From Mobula hypostoma (lineage: Eukaryota), in the NCBI RefSeq assembly GCF_963921235.1, contig NC_086097.1, positions 24,740,001-24,804,000 of the forward strand: a stretch of DNA of 64,000 nt, read 5' to 3'. Positions 2,640-44,100 of the stretch are shown here, one piece after another. The notes under the pieces were generated by a model, which was not told where the DNA came from, made no database searches, and worked only from the letters and a program-made list of their open reading frames with translations. The translations under genes were made by a program, and so were the position numbers. Position 1 is the first letter of the stretch; each line of letters begins with the position of its first letter.

Positions 2640-2771
2640 AACAACAGAAATTCTGCAGATGCTGGAAATTCAAGCAACACACATCAAAGTTGCTGGTGAA
2701 CGCAGCAGGCCAAGCAGCATCTATAGGAAGAGGGGCAGTCGACGTTTCAGGCCGAGACCCTTCGTCAGGAC
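2640..2771 (-). mobile_element. Short Penelope-derived insertion (hammerhead plus terminal repeat and tail) within the minisatellite
   Basis: Reverse complement of 23287-23418 with few differences; related to the terminal region of the PLE at 55560-57234. Confidence 0.85.
2736..2771 (-). ncRNA. Minimal type I hammerhead ribozyme motif, intact core
   Basis: The minus strand reads GUC-CUGACGA-AGGGUCUCGGCCU-GAAA-C-GUC-GACUG: conserved CUGANGA and GAAA, a GUC cleavage triplet and a 3-bp stem I. Confidence 0.75.
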
Positions 2772-3308
2772 AGCACAGACTTGCTGTTTATGGATGAACA
2801 CAGGGGTGGTGTTTATTGGTGAACACTGAGGTGGTATTTTTGGGTGAACACAGAGGTTGTATTTATGGATGAACACAGAGGTTATATTTATGGGTAAACT
2901 GAGAGATGGTGCTTACGGCTGAACTCAGATGTGAGGAGTATTATCTCTTCCTAAAACAGTGCGTGTTTATTTTCTGTCTCTTGTATCCTGAAAGTCCACA
3001 GTAACCATCAAGCACCTTCTTATGCCAATCGAACAACAATTTTATTTTGTTTTCATTGCCCTCCCAGCAAACTCTCCCCGCATTCTGTCCCAATGATGGG
3101 TTTTGTCGGAAGCATCTGCCCTCACAGATGCTGCTCGACCAACTCAGTCCTGACAGTAGATTGTTTGCTGCTCCATATTTCAGTAACTGCTGTCCCTCGC
3201 GTGTCTCCCTCCCCACATTCTTCCACTTCTCTTTGCACTCGGGGCAGTTACAGTACCAATCCAACATGTCTTTGGGATACGGGAGGGAGTGGGAGCATCA
3301 TGAGGAAA

Positions 3309-3896
3309 GCAACACACATCAAAGTTGCTGGTGAATGCAGCAGGCCAGGCAGCATCTCTAGGAAGAGGTACAGTCGATGTTTTGGGCTGAGACCTTTTGT
3401 CAGGACTAACTGAAGGAAGAGCTAGTAAGAGATTTGAAAGTGGGAGGGGGAGGGGGAGGGGGAGATCCGAAATGATAGCAGAAGACAGGAGGGGGAGGGA
3501 TGGAGCCAAGAGCTGGACAGGTGACTGGCAAAAGGGGATACGAGAGGATCATGGGACAGGAGGCCCAGGGAGAAGGAAAAGGGGAAGGGGGGGGAAAACC
3601 CAGAGGATGGGCAAGGGGTATAGTCAGAGGGACAGAGGGAGAAAAAGGAGAGTGAGAGAAAGAATGTGTGTATATAAATAAATAACAGATGGGGTACGAG
3701 GGGGAGGTGGGGCACTAACGGAAGTTAGAGAAGTCAATGTTCATGCCATCAGGTTGGAGGCTACCCAGAAGGAATATAAGGTGTTGTTCCTCCAACCTGA
3801 GTGTGGCTTCATATTTACAGTAGAGGAGGCCGTGTATAGACATATCAGAATGGGAATGGGATGTGGAATTAAAATGTGTGGCCACTGGGAGATGAG
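3309..3896 (-). mobile_element. Penelope-like element 3' fragment (GIY-YIG C-terminus, 3' region, decayed hammerhead) with 12-bp TSD, inserted in a SINE
   Basis: The minus strand translates LPVATHFNSTSHSHSDMSIHGLLYCKYEATLRLEEQHLIFLLGSLQPDGMNIDFSNFR*. TSD ATCATGAGGAAA at 3297-3308 and 3897-3908. Confidence 0.9.
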
Positions 3897-15078: not shown

Positions 15079-16865
15079 CATGTTGACAAAATTTGTTTTT
15101 GTAGCAGCAGCACGGTGCAATACATAAACAATTTACAATAAAAAATATAAAAATAACTAGTGCAACAGAGGAATAGTGTGGTAGTGTTCATGGACCTTTG
15201 ACAAATCTGATGGTTGAGTGGAAGAAACTGTTCCTATAACATTGTGTATGGGTCTTCAGACTCCTGTACCTCCCCCCCGATGCTAGTAAGGAGAAGATGG
15301 CAAGTCCTGGATGGTGAGAATCCTTGATGATGAATCTAGGTTCTTGAGGCAATATCTTGTGAAGATGTCCTCGATGGTGAGAGGCTTGTGCCCATGAGGG
15401 AGCTGGCTGAGACCAGCACTCTCTGCAGCCTCTTGCGATGTTGACACCAACACCAGCTAATATTGTCTAATCTTGCACAACACCTTCAAAAGGAAGTGCC
15501 TCAGAAAGCTGGCATCCATCACTCAAGACCCTCACTATGCCCTCTTTTCGTTACCACCACCATGGAGGAGGTACAAGAACCTAACGATGGACATTTAATA
15601 TTTTCAGAACAGATTCTTCCCCTCCACCATCAGATCTCTGAACAGCCCATGAATCTCACTATTCCTCTTTTGCGCTATTTATTTTAATTTTAATTTTAAA
15701 ATACCGATTTTTTTTTGTCTTGCTGCCACAAAACAACAAATTTCTATGTCAGTGATAATAAACATGATTCTGATTGTTTTCTGTAACTGCCCATGATATT
15801 ATCATTTTACTGTACTGCTTCTTACTTCATCCCCCCCCCACTACCCCATGCACCCATGTTCCCCCTCACCTATCACCTGCCTTCCACTCCCCTACCTTCT
15901 TATTCTGCTTTCTGCCCCCTTCCTTTCCAGTCCTGGTGAAGGGTCGCAGCGTGAAACATCGACTGTATATTCCCCTCCACAGATGCTGCCCAACTCGCTG
16001 AGTTCCTCCAGCACTCCTGCTCAAGCTTTACAGCATTTTGCAGCATCTCTTCTCTTCACCGCCCTGTCAGCCTCTGTCCCCGCTTTCCGGGGATCCAAAC
16101 CGAAAGAAGATATTTTGAAAACCGTCCCCTCAAACCTGAGGGACAGAGTCCATAAATCCTTTCCTTCTCCATATTTTATTCAGGAATCCCACCTACTTAA
16201 ACTCTAATGAAAGATCAGACTTGAAATTATCTGTGGGAGCCGTTTGGCTCTGATGCTGAATCTAAATCTAAACCACTGGGTAATTGTGAGCCATTATTCT
16301 GCCTAGATATGGGATTCACTGCCCCAGATGTGAAATGGTTTGAAACGATAGCAATCTGAGCCCAGATCAGAAACACCTTTGATCAGGGGCCATTTCTGCT
16401 CGGATTCTGATGCTCTTTCCTTCATCTCTCTGCATGGCAAGAGGCTTATTTCATATTAAATTATGAGATGGGAGCCTGGAGTGCTGAACACCATTGTGAA
16501 CCTTAGAACAGGAATGTGTTATAATGACGACAGCATATTATCCTATACTTCTGAAATCCAGCTCCACTGAAGTCAAAAGAACCATATTTTAGAAGTGAAG
16601 CATAATCTTCAGATACTCCTCTGTTGCAGCTCTTCTGTTCCCCTGTGCCTTCACGTTCAGCCACAGCACAGTTGCGTCAGGCTGTAAGATGCTGCTCGGT
16701 GAATGGTTTTCACCAAGTTTGTTCCCCGTTCGTTACACTGTGCATCAGTGTCTATTTTTAAGGAGGGTGTGAGAATGCACAGACCAGGAGAATGCGTAGG
16801 CCCGTACAACTGCACAGGTTGTTTCAGGGGCTATATTTCAGAATCAGGTTATAATCACTGACGGA

Positions 16866-21180: not shown

Positions 21181-23215
21181 CAAAGTAATATTACTACAAA
21201 TAAATTAACAAAATATAAAAGAAGATTGACATTTAACATAAGGTGCATTTAGAACACAAGTTACTAGCGTTTCTTATGAGATGAGACCTGGGTGGTGGCT
21301 GGGAGTTCAGTAGTCTTACAGCCTGGAGAAAGAAGCTGTTACCCATCCTAACAGGCCTTGTCCTAATGCTGTGGTACCTCCTGTCTGATAGTAGGGCATC
21401 AAAGAGCTTGTGGGACAGATGGAAGGAATCTTTGCAATAGTACGAGCCCTGCGTACACTGTGTTCATGATAAATATCTCGGATGGGCGCAATGATAACCC
21501 CAATGATCCTCTCAGTAGTCCTCGCAATCCTTTGGAGGGTCCTGCAATCAGATGTCTTGCAATTCCTATACCAGACAGTCATGCAGCTGGTCAAAACACT
21601 TAATGGTGCTCTTGTAAAAATTGAATGAGATAGGAGGGGAGCCTTGATTGCCTCAATCCCTTCAGAAAATGGAGACATGGCAATGTTTTCTTGAATAAAG
21701 AGGTGGTGTTGAGGGACCAGGTGAGGTCATCCGTTATCTTCAAACTATCAGATTCCACGGTAGTGTAGTGGTTAGCACAACACCGTTACAACTCAGAGTG
21801 CTGGTGTTTGGAGTTCATTTCCGGCATCCTCTGTTAGAAGCTTTTGTATGTATTTCCCGTGAGCGTGTGGGCTTCCTCTGGTTGCCCTAATTTCATCACA
21901 CATTCCAAAGACGTACCAGTTAGTAGGTTAATTGGTCATTGTAAATTGTCTTGTGATGAGGCTAGGGTTAAATAGGGGAGTTGATGAGCAATGTGTCTCA
22001 CTGGGCCCGGAAAGGCCTATTCCAAGCCATTATCTCTAAATAAGAATGAAATGGGCACTCCCAGAAACTTGGTTCTCCATGGAGAAGCCATTTATGTGCA
22101 ATGAGGAATGGTCAATCTGCACCATCCCTAAGTCCACAATCAACTCTTTAGTTTGTCCACTTTCAGACTCAAGTTGATGTGCTTGCATCATTCTACAAAG
22201 TCACCCTACCTCCTGAACCAATGAAAGATCTTGGCCCAAAATGTTGGCTCATTATTCCTCACTTTAGATGCTGCTTGACCTGATGGTTTCTCCATGTCTT
22301 CCTTGTAAATATTACAAACTTCTCAGGCAGATCACTCCTCAACTTCTCAGTGTTTATGTGACCTTGGAAATCAAAATTAACTCTGCAGATACTGTAAATC
22401 TGAAACAAAAGGAGAAGATGCTGAAAATACAGGATTAGAGAGCATGTCTCATGTAGATAGGGCTCTGCCCTTTGCAGCAAAAGAAGATGAGAGGTGACTT
22501 GATAAAGTGTACAATATTATAAGAGGCACAGATAGAGTGAATGGCCAGAGGAATTTTCCCATGTGGAAATGGCTACCACAATCAGGGTAATTGGAGGGAA
22601 GTATAGGAGGGACGTCAGAGTTAAGTTCTTTTAACCAAGTGGTGAGTGTGTGGAACATCCTGTGGGACCATAAAACATAGGAGCAGAATAAGGCCATTTG
22701 GCCCACTGAGTCTGCTCTGCCACTTCACCATGGCTAATTTACTATCCCTCTCAACACCCTTCTCCTGCCTTCTCCCTATACCCTTCAACACCCTTACTAA
22801 TCAAGAACCTATCAACTTCCGCTTTAAATATATTCAATGTCTTGGACTCTATGGCTGCCTGTGGTAATGATTTTCACAGATTCACTACCCTCTGGCTAAT
22901 AAAAAACCTCCTCATCTCTGTTCCAAATGGACATCCCTCTGGTCTGAGACTGTGCCCTCCAGTCATAGACTCATCCAGTATAGGAAACATCCTCCCTACG
23001 TACCTTCTATCTGGACCTTTCAATATTCGATAGAGATTAAAGGCTTAGAGCCATCAAACATTCCTCATATATTAACCCATAATAATTCTCATGCACTTCC
23101 TCGAGACCTCTCCAATGCCAGAAAGTCTTTTCTTAGATAAGGGGCTGAAAACTGCTCACAAAACTCCAAGTGTAATTTGATTAATGCCTTCTAAGGCATC
23201 AGCATTACATCCTTG

Positions 23216-23418
23216 CAACACACATAAAAGTTGCTGGTGAACGCAGCAGGCCAGGCAGCATCTCTAGGAAGAGGTGCAATCGAAAAGTCCTGACGAAGGG
23301 TCTCGGCCTGAAACGTCGACTGTACCTCTTCATAGAGATGCTGCCTGGCCTGCTGCGTTCACCAGCAACTTTCATGTGTGTTGCTTGAATTTCCAGCATC
23401 TGCAGAATTCCTGTTGTT
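23216..23418 (+). mobile_element. Penelope-derived hairpin insertion (inverted terminal repeats around a hammerhead) with 15-bp TSD
   Basis: The arm 23215-23283 is the reverse complement of 23316-23384; TSD AGCATTACATCCTTG at 23201-23215 and 23419-23433. Confidence 0.92.
23286..23321 (+). ncRNA. Minimal type I hammerhead ribozyme motif, intact core, predicted cleavage after C23317
   Basis: AGUC-CUGACGA-AGGGUCUCGGCCU-GAAA-C-GUC-GACU: stem I AGUC/GACU, short stem II, self-complementary ACGU in place of stem III. Confidence 0.8.
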
Positions 23419-23901
23419 AGCATTACATCCTTGTTTTTATATTCTAGTCCTCTTGAAATCAATGCTAATATTGCATTTACCTTTCTTACAATCAACTCAA
23501 CTTGCAAGTTAACCTTTAGGAAATCCTGCACAAGGACTCCCAAGCCCCTTTGCAACTCTGATTTTTTAAAATTCCTCCTCATTTAGAAAATAGCCCAAGC
23601 CTTTATTCCTTCTCCTAAAGTGTACGATCATAGACTTCCTTACACTGTATTCCATCTGCCACTTCTTTGTCCATTCTCCAAATCTGTCTAAGTCCTTCTG
23701 CAGATTCCCTGCTTCCTCAACACTCCACCTGTCTTCATACCATCCACAAACTTGGTCACAAAGCCATCAATTTCTTCATCCAAATCATTGACATAGAATG
23801 TGAAAAGAAGTGACCTCAACACTGACCCCTGTGGAACACTGGCAGCCAACCAGAATTTGCCCCCTTTATTCCTACTCTTTGCCTCCTACCAGTCAGCTAA
23901 T

Positions 23902-41114: not shown

Positions 41115-44100
41115 CAAAGCCTCAGCATTACGTCCTTGCTTTTATATTTTAGTCATCTTGAAATGAATGATAAATTTGCATTTGTCTTCCTTACCACTGA
41201 CTCAACCTCCAAGTTAACCTTTAAGGAATCCTGTACGAGGACTCCCAAGTCCCTTTGCATCTCTGATTTTTGAATTTTCTCCCTGTTTAGAAAATAGTCC
41301 ACCTCTTTATTCCATGACCAAAACTTCCCTACATTCCCTCTGCCACTCCTTTGCCCATTCTCCCAATCTGTCAAAGTCCTTCCGCAGACTCCAACACTAC
41401 CTGCTCCTCCGCCTATCTTCGTATTGTCCACAAAACTGACCACAAAGCCATCAAGTCCATCATCCAAATCATTGCCATATAACGTGAAAAGAAGCGGTCC
41501 CAACATCAACCCCTGTGAGGCACCACTAAGTCCTGGCAGCCAACCATGAAAAGTCCCTTTATTCCCATTCTTAGTCTCCTGTCAGTCTGCTAAAATTCTA
41601 TCCATGCCAGTATCTTTACTGTAATACCATGGGTTCTTACCATGAGCAGCCTCGTGTTTGGCGCTTTGTCAAAGGCCTTTCGAAAGTCCAGATAAACATC
41701 CACTGACTCTCCTTTGTCTATCTTGCCTGTTATTTCCTCAAAGAATTCCAAAAGATTTGTCAGGCAAGATTTCCCTTTAAGAATACCATGCTGACTTTGG
41801 CTTATTTTATAATGTGCCTTCATGTACCACAAAACCTCATCCTTAATAATAATTAATAACTCCAACATCTTCCCACCCAGTAAAGTCAGGCTAATTAGGC
41901 TATAATTTCCTTTCTTCTGTCTCCCTCCCTTCTTAAAAAGTGGAGTGACATTATCCATTTTCCAGTCCTCTGTAACTTTGGCACCCTCTGGAATCACTAG
42001 ATTCTGGAGTGGTTCTAGAGGGTGCCATAGTGGCTTAGAGGTTAGTGTGACACTATGACAGCTCAGGGCTGTTCTGGAGTTCAGAGTTCAATTCCGGCAC
42101 CATTCTGTAAGGAGTCTCCGTATGTCCCACACCTGGAATGTGTGGGTTTTCTTTACATCCTCTGGTTTCCTTACATTACCGGGTAGGTTAATTGGTTATT
42201 GTAAATTGTCCTGTGATTAGGTTGGTGTTTATCAGGGGTAGCTAGGGTGGCGTGGCTCAAAGGACCAGAAAGGCCTACCCCCTCGCTGTATCACTAAATA
42301 AATATAAATAAGTAAATATGCTTCCACAATCTCTTCAGCTACCTCTTTCAGAACCATGGGGTGTAGTCCATCTGGTCCAATTGATATATCTAACTTCAGA
42401 TCCTTTCCTTTCCCAAGCACCTACACTTATTTCTGCTGCCTAACATTCTCGGATTCCAGGCACACTGCCAATGTCTTCCACAGTGAAAACTGATGCATAA
42501 TACTAATTAAGCTCATGCATCATTTCTTTGTTCCCCCATTACTACCTCTCCAGCATCTTTTCCAGCCGTCTAAATCCACTCTTGCCTCTCTTTTACTCTT
42601 TACAAATCTGAAAAAAAAACTTTTGGTGTCCTCTTTTCTAATATTGGCTAGCTTACCTACATGTTTCATTGTTTCCCTCCTTATAGCTTTTTTAGTTGCC
42701 CTATTGGATTTTAAAGCTTCCAAATCCTCCAACATCCCACTGATTTTTGCTGTATTCTATGTTTTCTCTTTTGTGTTTATGCTCCGTTTGACTTCCCTTG
42801 TCAGCCACAGTTGCATTATCCTCTCTTTAATATACTTCTTCATCTTTGGGATATATCGATCCTGTTCCTTCTGAATTGCTCCCAGAACCTCCAGCCATCA
42901 TCCCTGCTACAGTCCCCATCCAATCAATTTTGTCAGCACTTCTCTCATTCTTCTGTAATTCCCTTTAATCCACTGCAATACTGACATATTTGACTTTATC
43001 TTCTCCCTCAGAGAGGGTGAATTCTATCATATTATGATCACTATTTCCTCAGGGTTCCTTTACCACAAGCGCCCTAATCAAATCTGGTTCAAAGTTCAAA
43101 AAGTACATTTCTTATCAAACAACATATATGTCAGCATATAGAACCCTAACATTCTTTTTCTCATGGGCATACTCAATAAATCCATAATGGAATAATAATC
43201 ATAATAAAATCAATGAAGGACCACACCAATTTGGCATTCAACCAGTGTGCAAAAGACAACAAACTGTGCAAATATATAAAAAAACAATAAATATTGAGAA
43301 AATGAGATGAGGAGTCCTTGAAAGTGAGTTCATAGGCTATGGGAACATTTCAGTGATGGGGCAAGTGAAGTTGAATGAAATTATCCCCTTTTTGAAAGAG
43401 CCTGATGGTTGAGGGATAATAACTGTTCCTGAACCTGGTTGGGTAAGTCTTTAGGCAGCTTTACCTTCTCCCTGATGGCAAGACAACATGATCTGGGTGG
43501 AGCAACATACATAAAAAATGCTGGTGAACACAGCAGGCCAGGCAGCATCTATAGGAACAGGTACAGTTGATGTTTCAGGCCGAGACCCTTCATCAGGACT
43601 AGCTGAAAGAAGAGATAGTAAGAGATTTGAAAGTGGGAGAGAGGGGGAGATCTGAAATGATAGGAGAAGACAGGAGGGGGAGGGATGGAGCTAAGAGCTG
43701 GAAAGTTGATTGGTAAAAGGGATACGAGGCTGGAGAAGGGAGAGGATCACGGGATGTGATCTGGGTGGTGTGGGTCCCTGATGATGTTTGCTGCATTCTT
43801 GCAACAACACTTCATGTAGATGTGCTCAATAGTGGGGAGGGTTTTACCCGTGATGGACTGGGCAGTATCAACTAATTTTAGTAGGATTTTCCTGCAAAAT
43901 ATTGCACAACACTCAATCCAAAATTGCCTTTCATCTGGTAGGCTCAACCACAAGCTGCTCTAAAAAAGCCATCCTGTAGGCATTCTACAAATTCCCTCTC
44001 TTGGGATCCAACACCAGCTTGATTTCCCCAATCTACCTGCATATTGAAATTCCCCATGACTATTTCCCCATTTCTCTTTTGACATGCCTTTTCCAACCCC

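What the first reader, a model, noticed from the sequence alone, without database searches (positions are those of the whole stretch)
23201..23433. 203-bp hairpin insertion with a ribozyme in the loop and an inversion breakpoint next to the cleavage site
Seen: a ~68-bp inverted repeat (23215-23283 vs 23316-23384) encloses the hammerhead core. It is followed by a 34-nt unpaired tail (23385-23418) and flanked by a perfect 15-bp TSD. The inverted arm stops within 2 nt of the predicted GUC cleavage site. Known: Penelope copies often have inverted terminal repeats and a short 3' tail. Inference: the inverted arm was copied from a ribozyme-cleaved RNA, which would be a genomic fossil of in vivo cleavage during retrotransposition.
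Basis: partly seen in the sequence, partly recalled or inferred. Interest (0 to 1): 0.72.

Follow-up and report, generated by a model that had tools for sequence, protein, structure and literature searches.

The report
Penelope hairpin, mostly from uncut RNA
This 203-base hairpin is an ordinary short insertion of a very abundant Penelope-type jumping gene; across the family the copies' ends are scattered and pile up 31 bases before the predicted ribozyme cut, with only a small extra bump at the cut itself, so this copy is probably not a fossil of self-cutting, although a small share of copies likely are.

Summary
The structure is real: 15-bp TSD, 69-bp arms (94%), 34-nt tail, minimal hammerhead with predicted cut after 23317. 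It is the terminal repeat (pLTR) of a Neptune-type Penelope-like element with over 100,000 units in this genome. Of 89 tail-selected inverted copies, 75 arms run through the cut site and 5 (this one included) end within 2 nt of it. The main pile-up of ends lies at the ribozyme's 5' edge, 31 nt upstream, where this copy's forward strand also ends after reading through the uncut site. Genome-wide junction counts show a sharp minor peak at the cut (547 vs 88-223 at five neighbouring positions; 4,107 at -31). Removing microhomology and indel cases leaves about 2-3-fold. This arm ends at -2, a low-count position; the chance that it records cleavage is roughly 15%. Best model: both target ends primed cDNA on one uncut pLTR RNA and the two cDNA ends were joined. 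Earlier scan notes reported the -31 pile-up in this and other genomes, and a small cut-site excess in another genome.

The parts
23201..23215 (+). left target-site duplication (15 bp), inside a decayed LINE reverse-transcriptase remnant on the minus strand
   Evidence: D5; paralogous host copies carry the target once
23216..23283 (-). inverted 5' arm: pLTR positions +66 to -2 relative to the predicted cut, tail absent
23284..23285 (.). junction insert AA, matching neither arm; read as GAAA (23282-23285) if the arm really ended at the cut
   Evidence: sequence; (gap 2)
23286..23418 (+). forward 5'-truncated pLTR, starting at -32 (5' edge of hammerhead stem I), with tail
23286..23321 (+). minimal type I hammerhead motif; predicted cut between 23317 and 23318
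   Evidence: motif read; matches the min-HHR description in PMC4209133; no Rfam hit; activity untested
23385..23418 (+). 34-nt PLE 'tail' present on one side only
   Evidence: tail concept from PMC8557442 and PMC11167929
23419..23433 (+). right target-site duplication

Best explanation
The hairpin is a 5'-truncated, head-to-head insertion of a Neptune-type Penelope-like element, likely made when both ends of a 15-nt staggered target cut primed cDNA on one still-uncut pLTR RNA and the two cDNA ends were then joined. One strand likely started at the tail end (+101) and ran through the hammerhead to -31/-32, the commonest stop in the family and likely the RNA's 5' end. The other likely started at the tail base (+67) and stopped early at -2. 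A few untemplated purines fill the joint. Shown: anatomy, family identity, breakpoint distribution, arm concordance. Inferred: twin priming, the RNA 5' end at -31, end joining.
For: Family ORF with an RT YIDD motif, a CxxC-type linker and GIY-YIG lies upstream in long copies. Arm outer ends sit at the tail boundary: median +67, 71 of 89 within +60..+75; this matches the two RT start sites that bracket the tail in vitro (PMC11167929). TSDs of 10 nt or more were found in 111 of 210 copies, 72 of them 13-15 nt. 82 of 89 inverted insertions have at least one strand crossing the cut site; 180 of 210 forward copies do. Ends peak at -31: 16 of 299 ends in the sample, 43 within -33..-28; genome-wide 4,107 junctions, about 16 times the microhomology-free count at the cut. 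Arm and forward copy differ at 9% of subfamily-diagnostic sites vs 37% for random pairs. They share 20 rare variants vs a shuffled mean of 2.0, maximum 7. Hammerhead mutants did not change insertion in vitro (PMC11167929).
Against: No RNA end data: the guessed-RNA runs were contigs only. The meaning of the -31 peak is therefore unproven. No shared upstream exon was seen in 30 loci. A cap-like extra G is only hinted at (15 of the first 30 matches have G before the junction, counted by eye; several TSD-resolved cases are blunt). A real 2-3-fold excess of ends at the cut exists and this arm is 2 nt from it. This copy's arms differ at 4 of 69 sites, two of them family-polymorphic, which leaves two templates possible here. 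Shared rare variants could also come from gene conversion between arms or from small subfamilies.
Confidence: 0.75

Rival explanations
1. One reading: this arm is run-off cDNA from the 3' product of hammerhead cleavage. It truly ended at position 0, gained untemplated GAAA (GA matching the template by chance), and was joined to a second cDNA made from an uncut RNA or made before the cut.
For: Genome-wide junction counts peak sharply at the cut: -2: 93, -1: 88, 0: 547, +1: 204, +3: 164, +10: 223. After removing small indels and microhomology of 2 nt or more, the ratio to controls is 2.8 (95% range 2.0-3.8); with stricter hand-set counts 2.0 (1.3-3.0). 4 of 89 sampled arms end exactly at 0. Three of 50 loci join an end at 0 to an end at -31 across one extra base (L215-L217).
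Against: This arm's apparent end is -2, not 0; carry-over from true 0-ends explains an estimated 14-42% of such cases, and 7-27% once background is subtracted. The partner strand crosses the uncut site. 17 of 50 junctions at 0 use microhomology (9 via stem I AGTC, 7 via a GTC at -18), and about 7 more carry a templated CCTGAC piece. For joins to plain genomic DNA alone the ratio is 2.0 with a range including 1 (0.9-3.9). No equal-context GAC control was run. Minimal HHRs cut poorly in vitro (PMC4209133), and no RNA-seq reads ended at the cut in Anolis (PMC11167929).
Confidence: 0.15
2. Fold-back or self-priming: the arm was made by snap-back of a nascent strand at a palindrome (GTCGAC is centred on the cut), or on an antisense template as proposed in PMC3846280.
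For: About half of the junctions show overlap (43 of 89 with 1 nt or more, 11 with 6 or more). The arms are concordant in sequence. One sampled copy is a perfect palindrome at GTCGAC (L138).
Against: This junction has an insert, not an overlap. In many copies the arm reaches further 5' into the element than the forward copy does (e.g. L040, L054, L102), which a fold-back copy of the forward strand cannot do. Arms start at the tail base directly against the TSD.
Confidence: 0.08
3. A fixed 203-bp non-autonomous hairpin element (MITE-like) that moves as a unit.
For: Many hairpins are of similar size: 47 of 89 are 150-260 bp.
Against: Junctions differ between copies; even the 30 best matches to this insert have different arm and forward ends, and none repeats this junction.
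Confidence: 0.02

Closest known systems
Endonuclease-bearing Penelope-like element insertion unit: pLTR, adjacent inverted 5'-truncated copy, one-sided 30-40-bp tail, TSD (PMC8557442 passages; PMC3846280 passages and Discussion; PMC2377424 passages)
   Same: Head-to-head inverted pLTR, 34-nt tail on one side, TSD, heavy 5' truncation, RT + GIY-YIG ORF in long copies.
   Different: No ORF in this copy. TSDs here are mostly 13-15 bp (8-10 bp in the rotifer examples). The passages read do not map where the ends fall relative to the ribozyme.
[quoted passage not shown]
   Same: Type I core, short helix I (4-5 bp), palindromic positions 15.2-16.2 without helix III, predicted to need a dimer.
   Different: Helix II here is short (3-4 bp). 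In this copy the cut site is buried in the long stem. Activity was not tested.
PAc (Poseidon of Anolis) in vitro mechanism (Frangieh et al. 2024, PMC11167929; parts 1-2 of 4 read)
   Same: Two RT start sites bracketing the tail; both target strands cut and extended; uncut RNA is the dominant substrate.
   Different: Different clade (Poseidon; the hammerhead overlaps the ORF start). In the parts read, the study did not describe inverted products or an end pile-up at the ribozyme's edge.
L1 twin priming (recalled, not from a call)
   Same: Both target ends prime on one RNA and the two cDNAs are joined, often by microhomology.
   Different: In L1 the two cDNAs cover different RNA parts, giving an inversion. 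Here both cover the same part, giving an inverted repeat.

Membership tests
EN+ Penelope-like element | Single ORF with RT and C-terminal GIY-YIG endonuclease upstream of the pLTR | tested here: met
   Long copies (L071, L098 and others) end in this same repeat; translation shows YIDD and YIGET motifs. Pfam GIY-YIG E=2.7e-4, 21.6 bits, just under the 22.6 cut-off; no Pfam RT hit.
EN+ Penelope-like element | Direct or inverted pLTRs with an optional 30-40-bp tail | tested here: met
   34-nt tail; 89 of 210 tail-bearing copies have an inverted arm and 5 a partial tandem; tail-less copies are common.
EN+ Penelope-like element | Target-site duplication | tested here: met
   15 bp here; 10 nt or more in 111 of 210 copies; paralogous host sites carry the target once.
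Neptune clade | [quoted passage not shown] | tested here: met
   CKRNKCYTC between RT and EN in long copies.
Neptune clade | RT phylogeny groups with Neptune references | not tested
   No reference PLE proteins were fetched; Nematis is not formally excluded.
Minimal hammerhead ribozyme | Conserved core CUGANGA / GAAA / UH with helices I and II and a palindromic helix III stub | tested here: met
   Motif positions. Helices I and II form in the 37-nt fold, but the core mispairs and stability is not unusual (z -0.78). No Rfam match.
Minimal hammerhead ribozyme | Self-cleavage (as a dimer or protein-assisted) | not testable with these tools
   Indirect only: 2-3-fold excess of cDNA ends at the predicted cut.
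   This arm ends at -2; 4 of 89 arms end at 0 and 75 cross the site; the main peak is at -31. A minor excess at 0 is real.
Non-LTR retrozyme | Tandem non-coding HHR repeats (bioRxiv 10.64898/2026.07.22.740005, part 1 of 5 read) | tested here: not met
   Single inverted unit of a coding element's pLTR.

The most novel reading that the evidence does not exclude
The family's 100,000+ insertion junctions record two RNA 5' ends in the germline: a major one at the hammerhead's 5' edge (-31) and a minor, single-base one exactly at the GUC cut. The minor one would be direct genomic evidence that a minimal Penelope hammerhead cuts in vivo during retrotransposition, in about 0.3-0.8% of cDNAs, as a side path rather than as the cause of the inverted repeats.
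Probability: 0.4. Interest if true: 0.6.

Novelty: new member of a known kind. Interest (0 to 1): 0.3.

Why it matters
The insertion itself is ordinary. The family statistics matter more. PMC4209133 said there was no in vivo evidence for the role of PLE hammerheads, and PMC11167929 found cleavage unnecessary in vitro and no RNA reads ending at the cut. Here the breakpoints say that most templates were uncut and point to a defined RNA end at -31, while a small sharp excess at the cut hints at occasional cleavage. Both give exact positions to test by 5'-end sequencing. Six paper searches listed no paper whose title or abstract start maps PLE ends against the hammerhead. Subscription papers and supplements were not seen.

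Tried and rejected
Rfam scans found no hammerhead. The 30 loci from the whole-insert DNA search are biased towards similar junctions and were left out of the breakpoint counts. Orthologous empty site: contigs of 4 DNA runs laid on the locus were swamped by repeat copies; no 23215-23434 joint was among the rows shown; no verdict. RNA ends: no RNA holder listed; 4 guessed-RNA runs were contigs and showed no start or end sites; no verdict. Spliced-template explanation of the -31 peak: a branch-point-like TACTAAC, pyrimidine tract and CAG/TTAG lie just upstream, but 30 loci show no shared upstream exon. Branch-point stall at -46/-47: 9 of 299 ends in the sample, but genome-wide about 1.1-1.25%, similar to the sample's rate in that region; not supported, and no neighbouring control was run. 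'Arms generally come from two different templates': rejected for the family; the forward-C allele at +55 was an artefact of query selection. Loci for the -1 control were not obtained, so -1 enters only as a raw count.

Full report
Observation. The insert at 23216-23418 is flanked by a perfect 15-bp direct repeat and holds 69-nt arms (94% complementary, 32 nt apart) and a 34-nt one-sided tail, as described. A minimal hammerhead motif spans 23286-23321 with the predicted cut after C23317. Rfam does not detect it, and its isolated fold is not unusually stable, so the call rests on the motif and on PMC4209133. I number positions from the first base after the cut (0 = 23318). The arm's inner end is then -2, the forward copy starts at -32, and AA lies between them. 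The cut site lies within the long stem.

Identity. A 40-mer of the tail occurs 21,306 times exactly in the 3.48-Gb genome, a variant 4,171 times, and a 25-nt anchor just behind the cut 107,245 times. Long copies run upstream into an ORF with a YIDD RT motif, a CKRNKCYTC linker and a GIY-YIG domain (Pfam E=2.7e-4, slightly under cut-off). This fits a Neptune-type PLE as defined in PMC8557442; no tree was built. The target is a decayed LINE RT remnant on the minus strand whose reading continues across the site (the label CR1/L2-type is recalled). In 57 alignments of the right flank to fetched loci, nearly all (by eye) show host sequence running through one copy of the target, so the 15-mer is a true duplication. 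An orthologous empty site could not be judged.

Breakpoint test, sample. I took copies chosen by the tail alone, from about the first 70 Mb of contig C1 plus the window. Of 258 tail copies found, I dropped 33 that came from the query-biased search, then 14 under 86% identity and 1 at a locus edge, leaving 210; 89 have an inverted arm, this copy included. Arms shorter than about 20 nt, or with eroded outer ends, are missed. Arm inner ends range from about -2200 to +43: 75 cross the cut site, 9 stop before +2, 5 lie within 2 nt and 4 exactly at 0. Of forward ends, 180 of 210 cross it and 3 lie within 2 nt. The mode is -31 (16 of 299 ends; 43 in -33..-28), the 5' edge of stem I. This copy's forward strand belongs to that peak.

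Breakpoint test, genome-wide. I counted patterns of three non-reference bases followed by the element at chosen positions: -31: 4,107; -2: 93; -1: 88; 0: 547; +1: 204; +3: 164; +10: 223; -46: 138 with a stricter prefix. Scaled to units at risk, these are about 11%, 0.25%, 1.2%, 0.45%, 0.4%, 0.5% and 1.25% for -31, -2, 0, +1, +3, +10 and -46 (-1 was not scaled). The -31 pattern also catches older relatives, and the sample gives about 5%, so 5-11% is the fair range. I classified the first-listed loci: 50 of 547 at 0, 20 of 204 at +1, 20 of 164 at +3, and 30 each at -2, +10, -31 and -46. At 0: 17 inverted joins with microhomology of 2 nt or more (9 through stem I, 7 through GTC at -18, 1 deep in the ORF), 17 with less, 7 genomic, 3 direct and 6 small indels. 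At -31, 29 of 30 are free of microhomology with the element. With indels and microhomology removed, 0 exceeds the mean of the controls 2.8-fold (2.0-3.8). With stricter counts that I set by hand it is 2.0-fold (1.3-3.0). For genomic joins alone it is 2.0-fold (0.9-3.9), or 2.5-fold (1.1-5.2) without +1 as control. Position -31 exceeds 0 about 16-fold (13-23). So there is a sharp but minor excess at the cut. Its cause is not settled, because GAC/GTC recurs five times in the ribozyme and no equal-context control was run.

This copy. An arm ending at 0 followed by GA would look like an end at -2. A rough carry-over model puts the chance that an apparent -2 end derives from cleavage at 7-27%. The forward strand of the same insertion also crosses the uncut site. 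Arms and forward copies normally share a template: 9% mismatch at diagnostic sites vs 37% for random pairs in 171 hairpins (26 of them query-selected), and 20 shared rare variants vs 2.0 shuffled in the other 145. This copy's four arm mismatches are near the family background and neither show nor exclude that.

Mechanism. Arm outer ends sit at the tail base (median +67; 71 of 89 in +60..+75), directly against the TSD, and TSDs centre on 13-15 bp. PMC11167929 shows in vitro that a PLE protein cuts and extends both strands, starts at two sites bracketing the tail, and does not need ribozyme activity. The simplest reading, inferred rather than shown, is priming from both target ends on one uncut RNA, run-off or stalling, and end joining (38 of 89 junctions have inserts, 43 have overlaps). 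The -31 peak likely marks the RNA's 5' end. A splice-acceptor-like sequence lies just upstream, echoing the D. virilis intron that ends at helix I (PMC4209133), but no shared upstream exon or branch-point stall was found. Self-priming (PMC3846280) explains poorly the arms that extend beyond the forward copy.

Literature and earlier notes. Read: PMC11167929 and PMC4209133, parts 1-2 of 4 each; passages of PMC8557442, PMC2377424 and PMC3846280 plus its Discussion; part 1 of 5 of bioRxiv 10.64898/2026.07.22.740005. No supplements were read; they may bear on end mapping. Earlier scan notes, consulted after my own counts at -31, 0, -2, +1, +3 and +10, report the same edge pile-up in this and other genomes, and a small cut-site excess in another genome. 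They are unchecked and are not counted as support.

Verdict. A real, ordinary PLE hairpin. The specific fossil claim is unlikely for this copy (about 15%) and is not the family's rule. A minor in vivo cleavage signal in the family remains open (about 40%). Interest 0.3.

Noticed in passing
window 2640-2771 (-), 3307-3860 (-), 43501-43600 (-); older relatives near 15929, 40322, 40681, 46093, 47083, 54463, 55693: Further pLTR copies of this and older families in the window; the copy at 2771 starts exactly at -31, and the one at 3307-3860 carries the ORF's C-terminus and lacks the tail.
   Followed up: partly
family positions -53 to -31 (e.g. window 3404-3428, minus strand): Branch-point-like TACTAAC/TACTCAC, pyrimidine tract and CAG/TTAG directly before hammerhead stem I: a 3' splice-site-like signal that parallels the D. 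virilis intron ending at helix I.
   Followed up: partly
L103 (G000:C1:10087000-10096500): An independent insertion of this element at the same position in another copy of the host LINE, hinting at target preference.
   Followed up: no
L215, L216, L217: Three separate loci share one junction type: an end at the cut joined across one base to an end at -31.
   Followed up: partly
L222, L237, L239, L367, L368, L372, L375: Junctions that skip hammerhead stem II between two GAC triplets (-24 to +3); these could be template jumps across a nick or plain microhomology deletions.
   Followed up: partly
window 22600-23200 and 23434-23900 (-): Decayed LINE RT C-terminal region hosting the insertion.
   Followed up: partly
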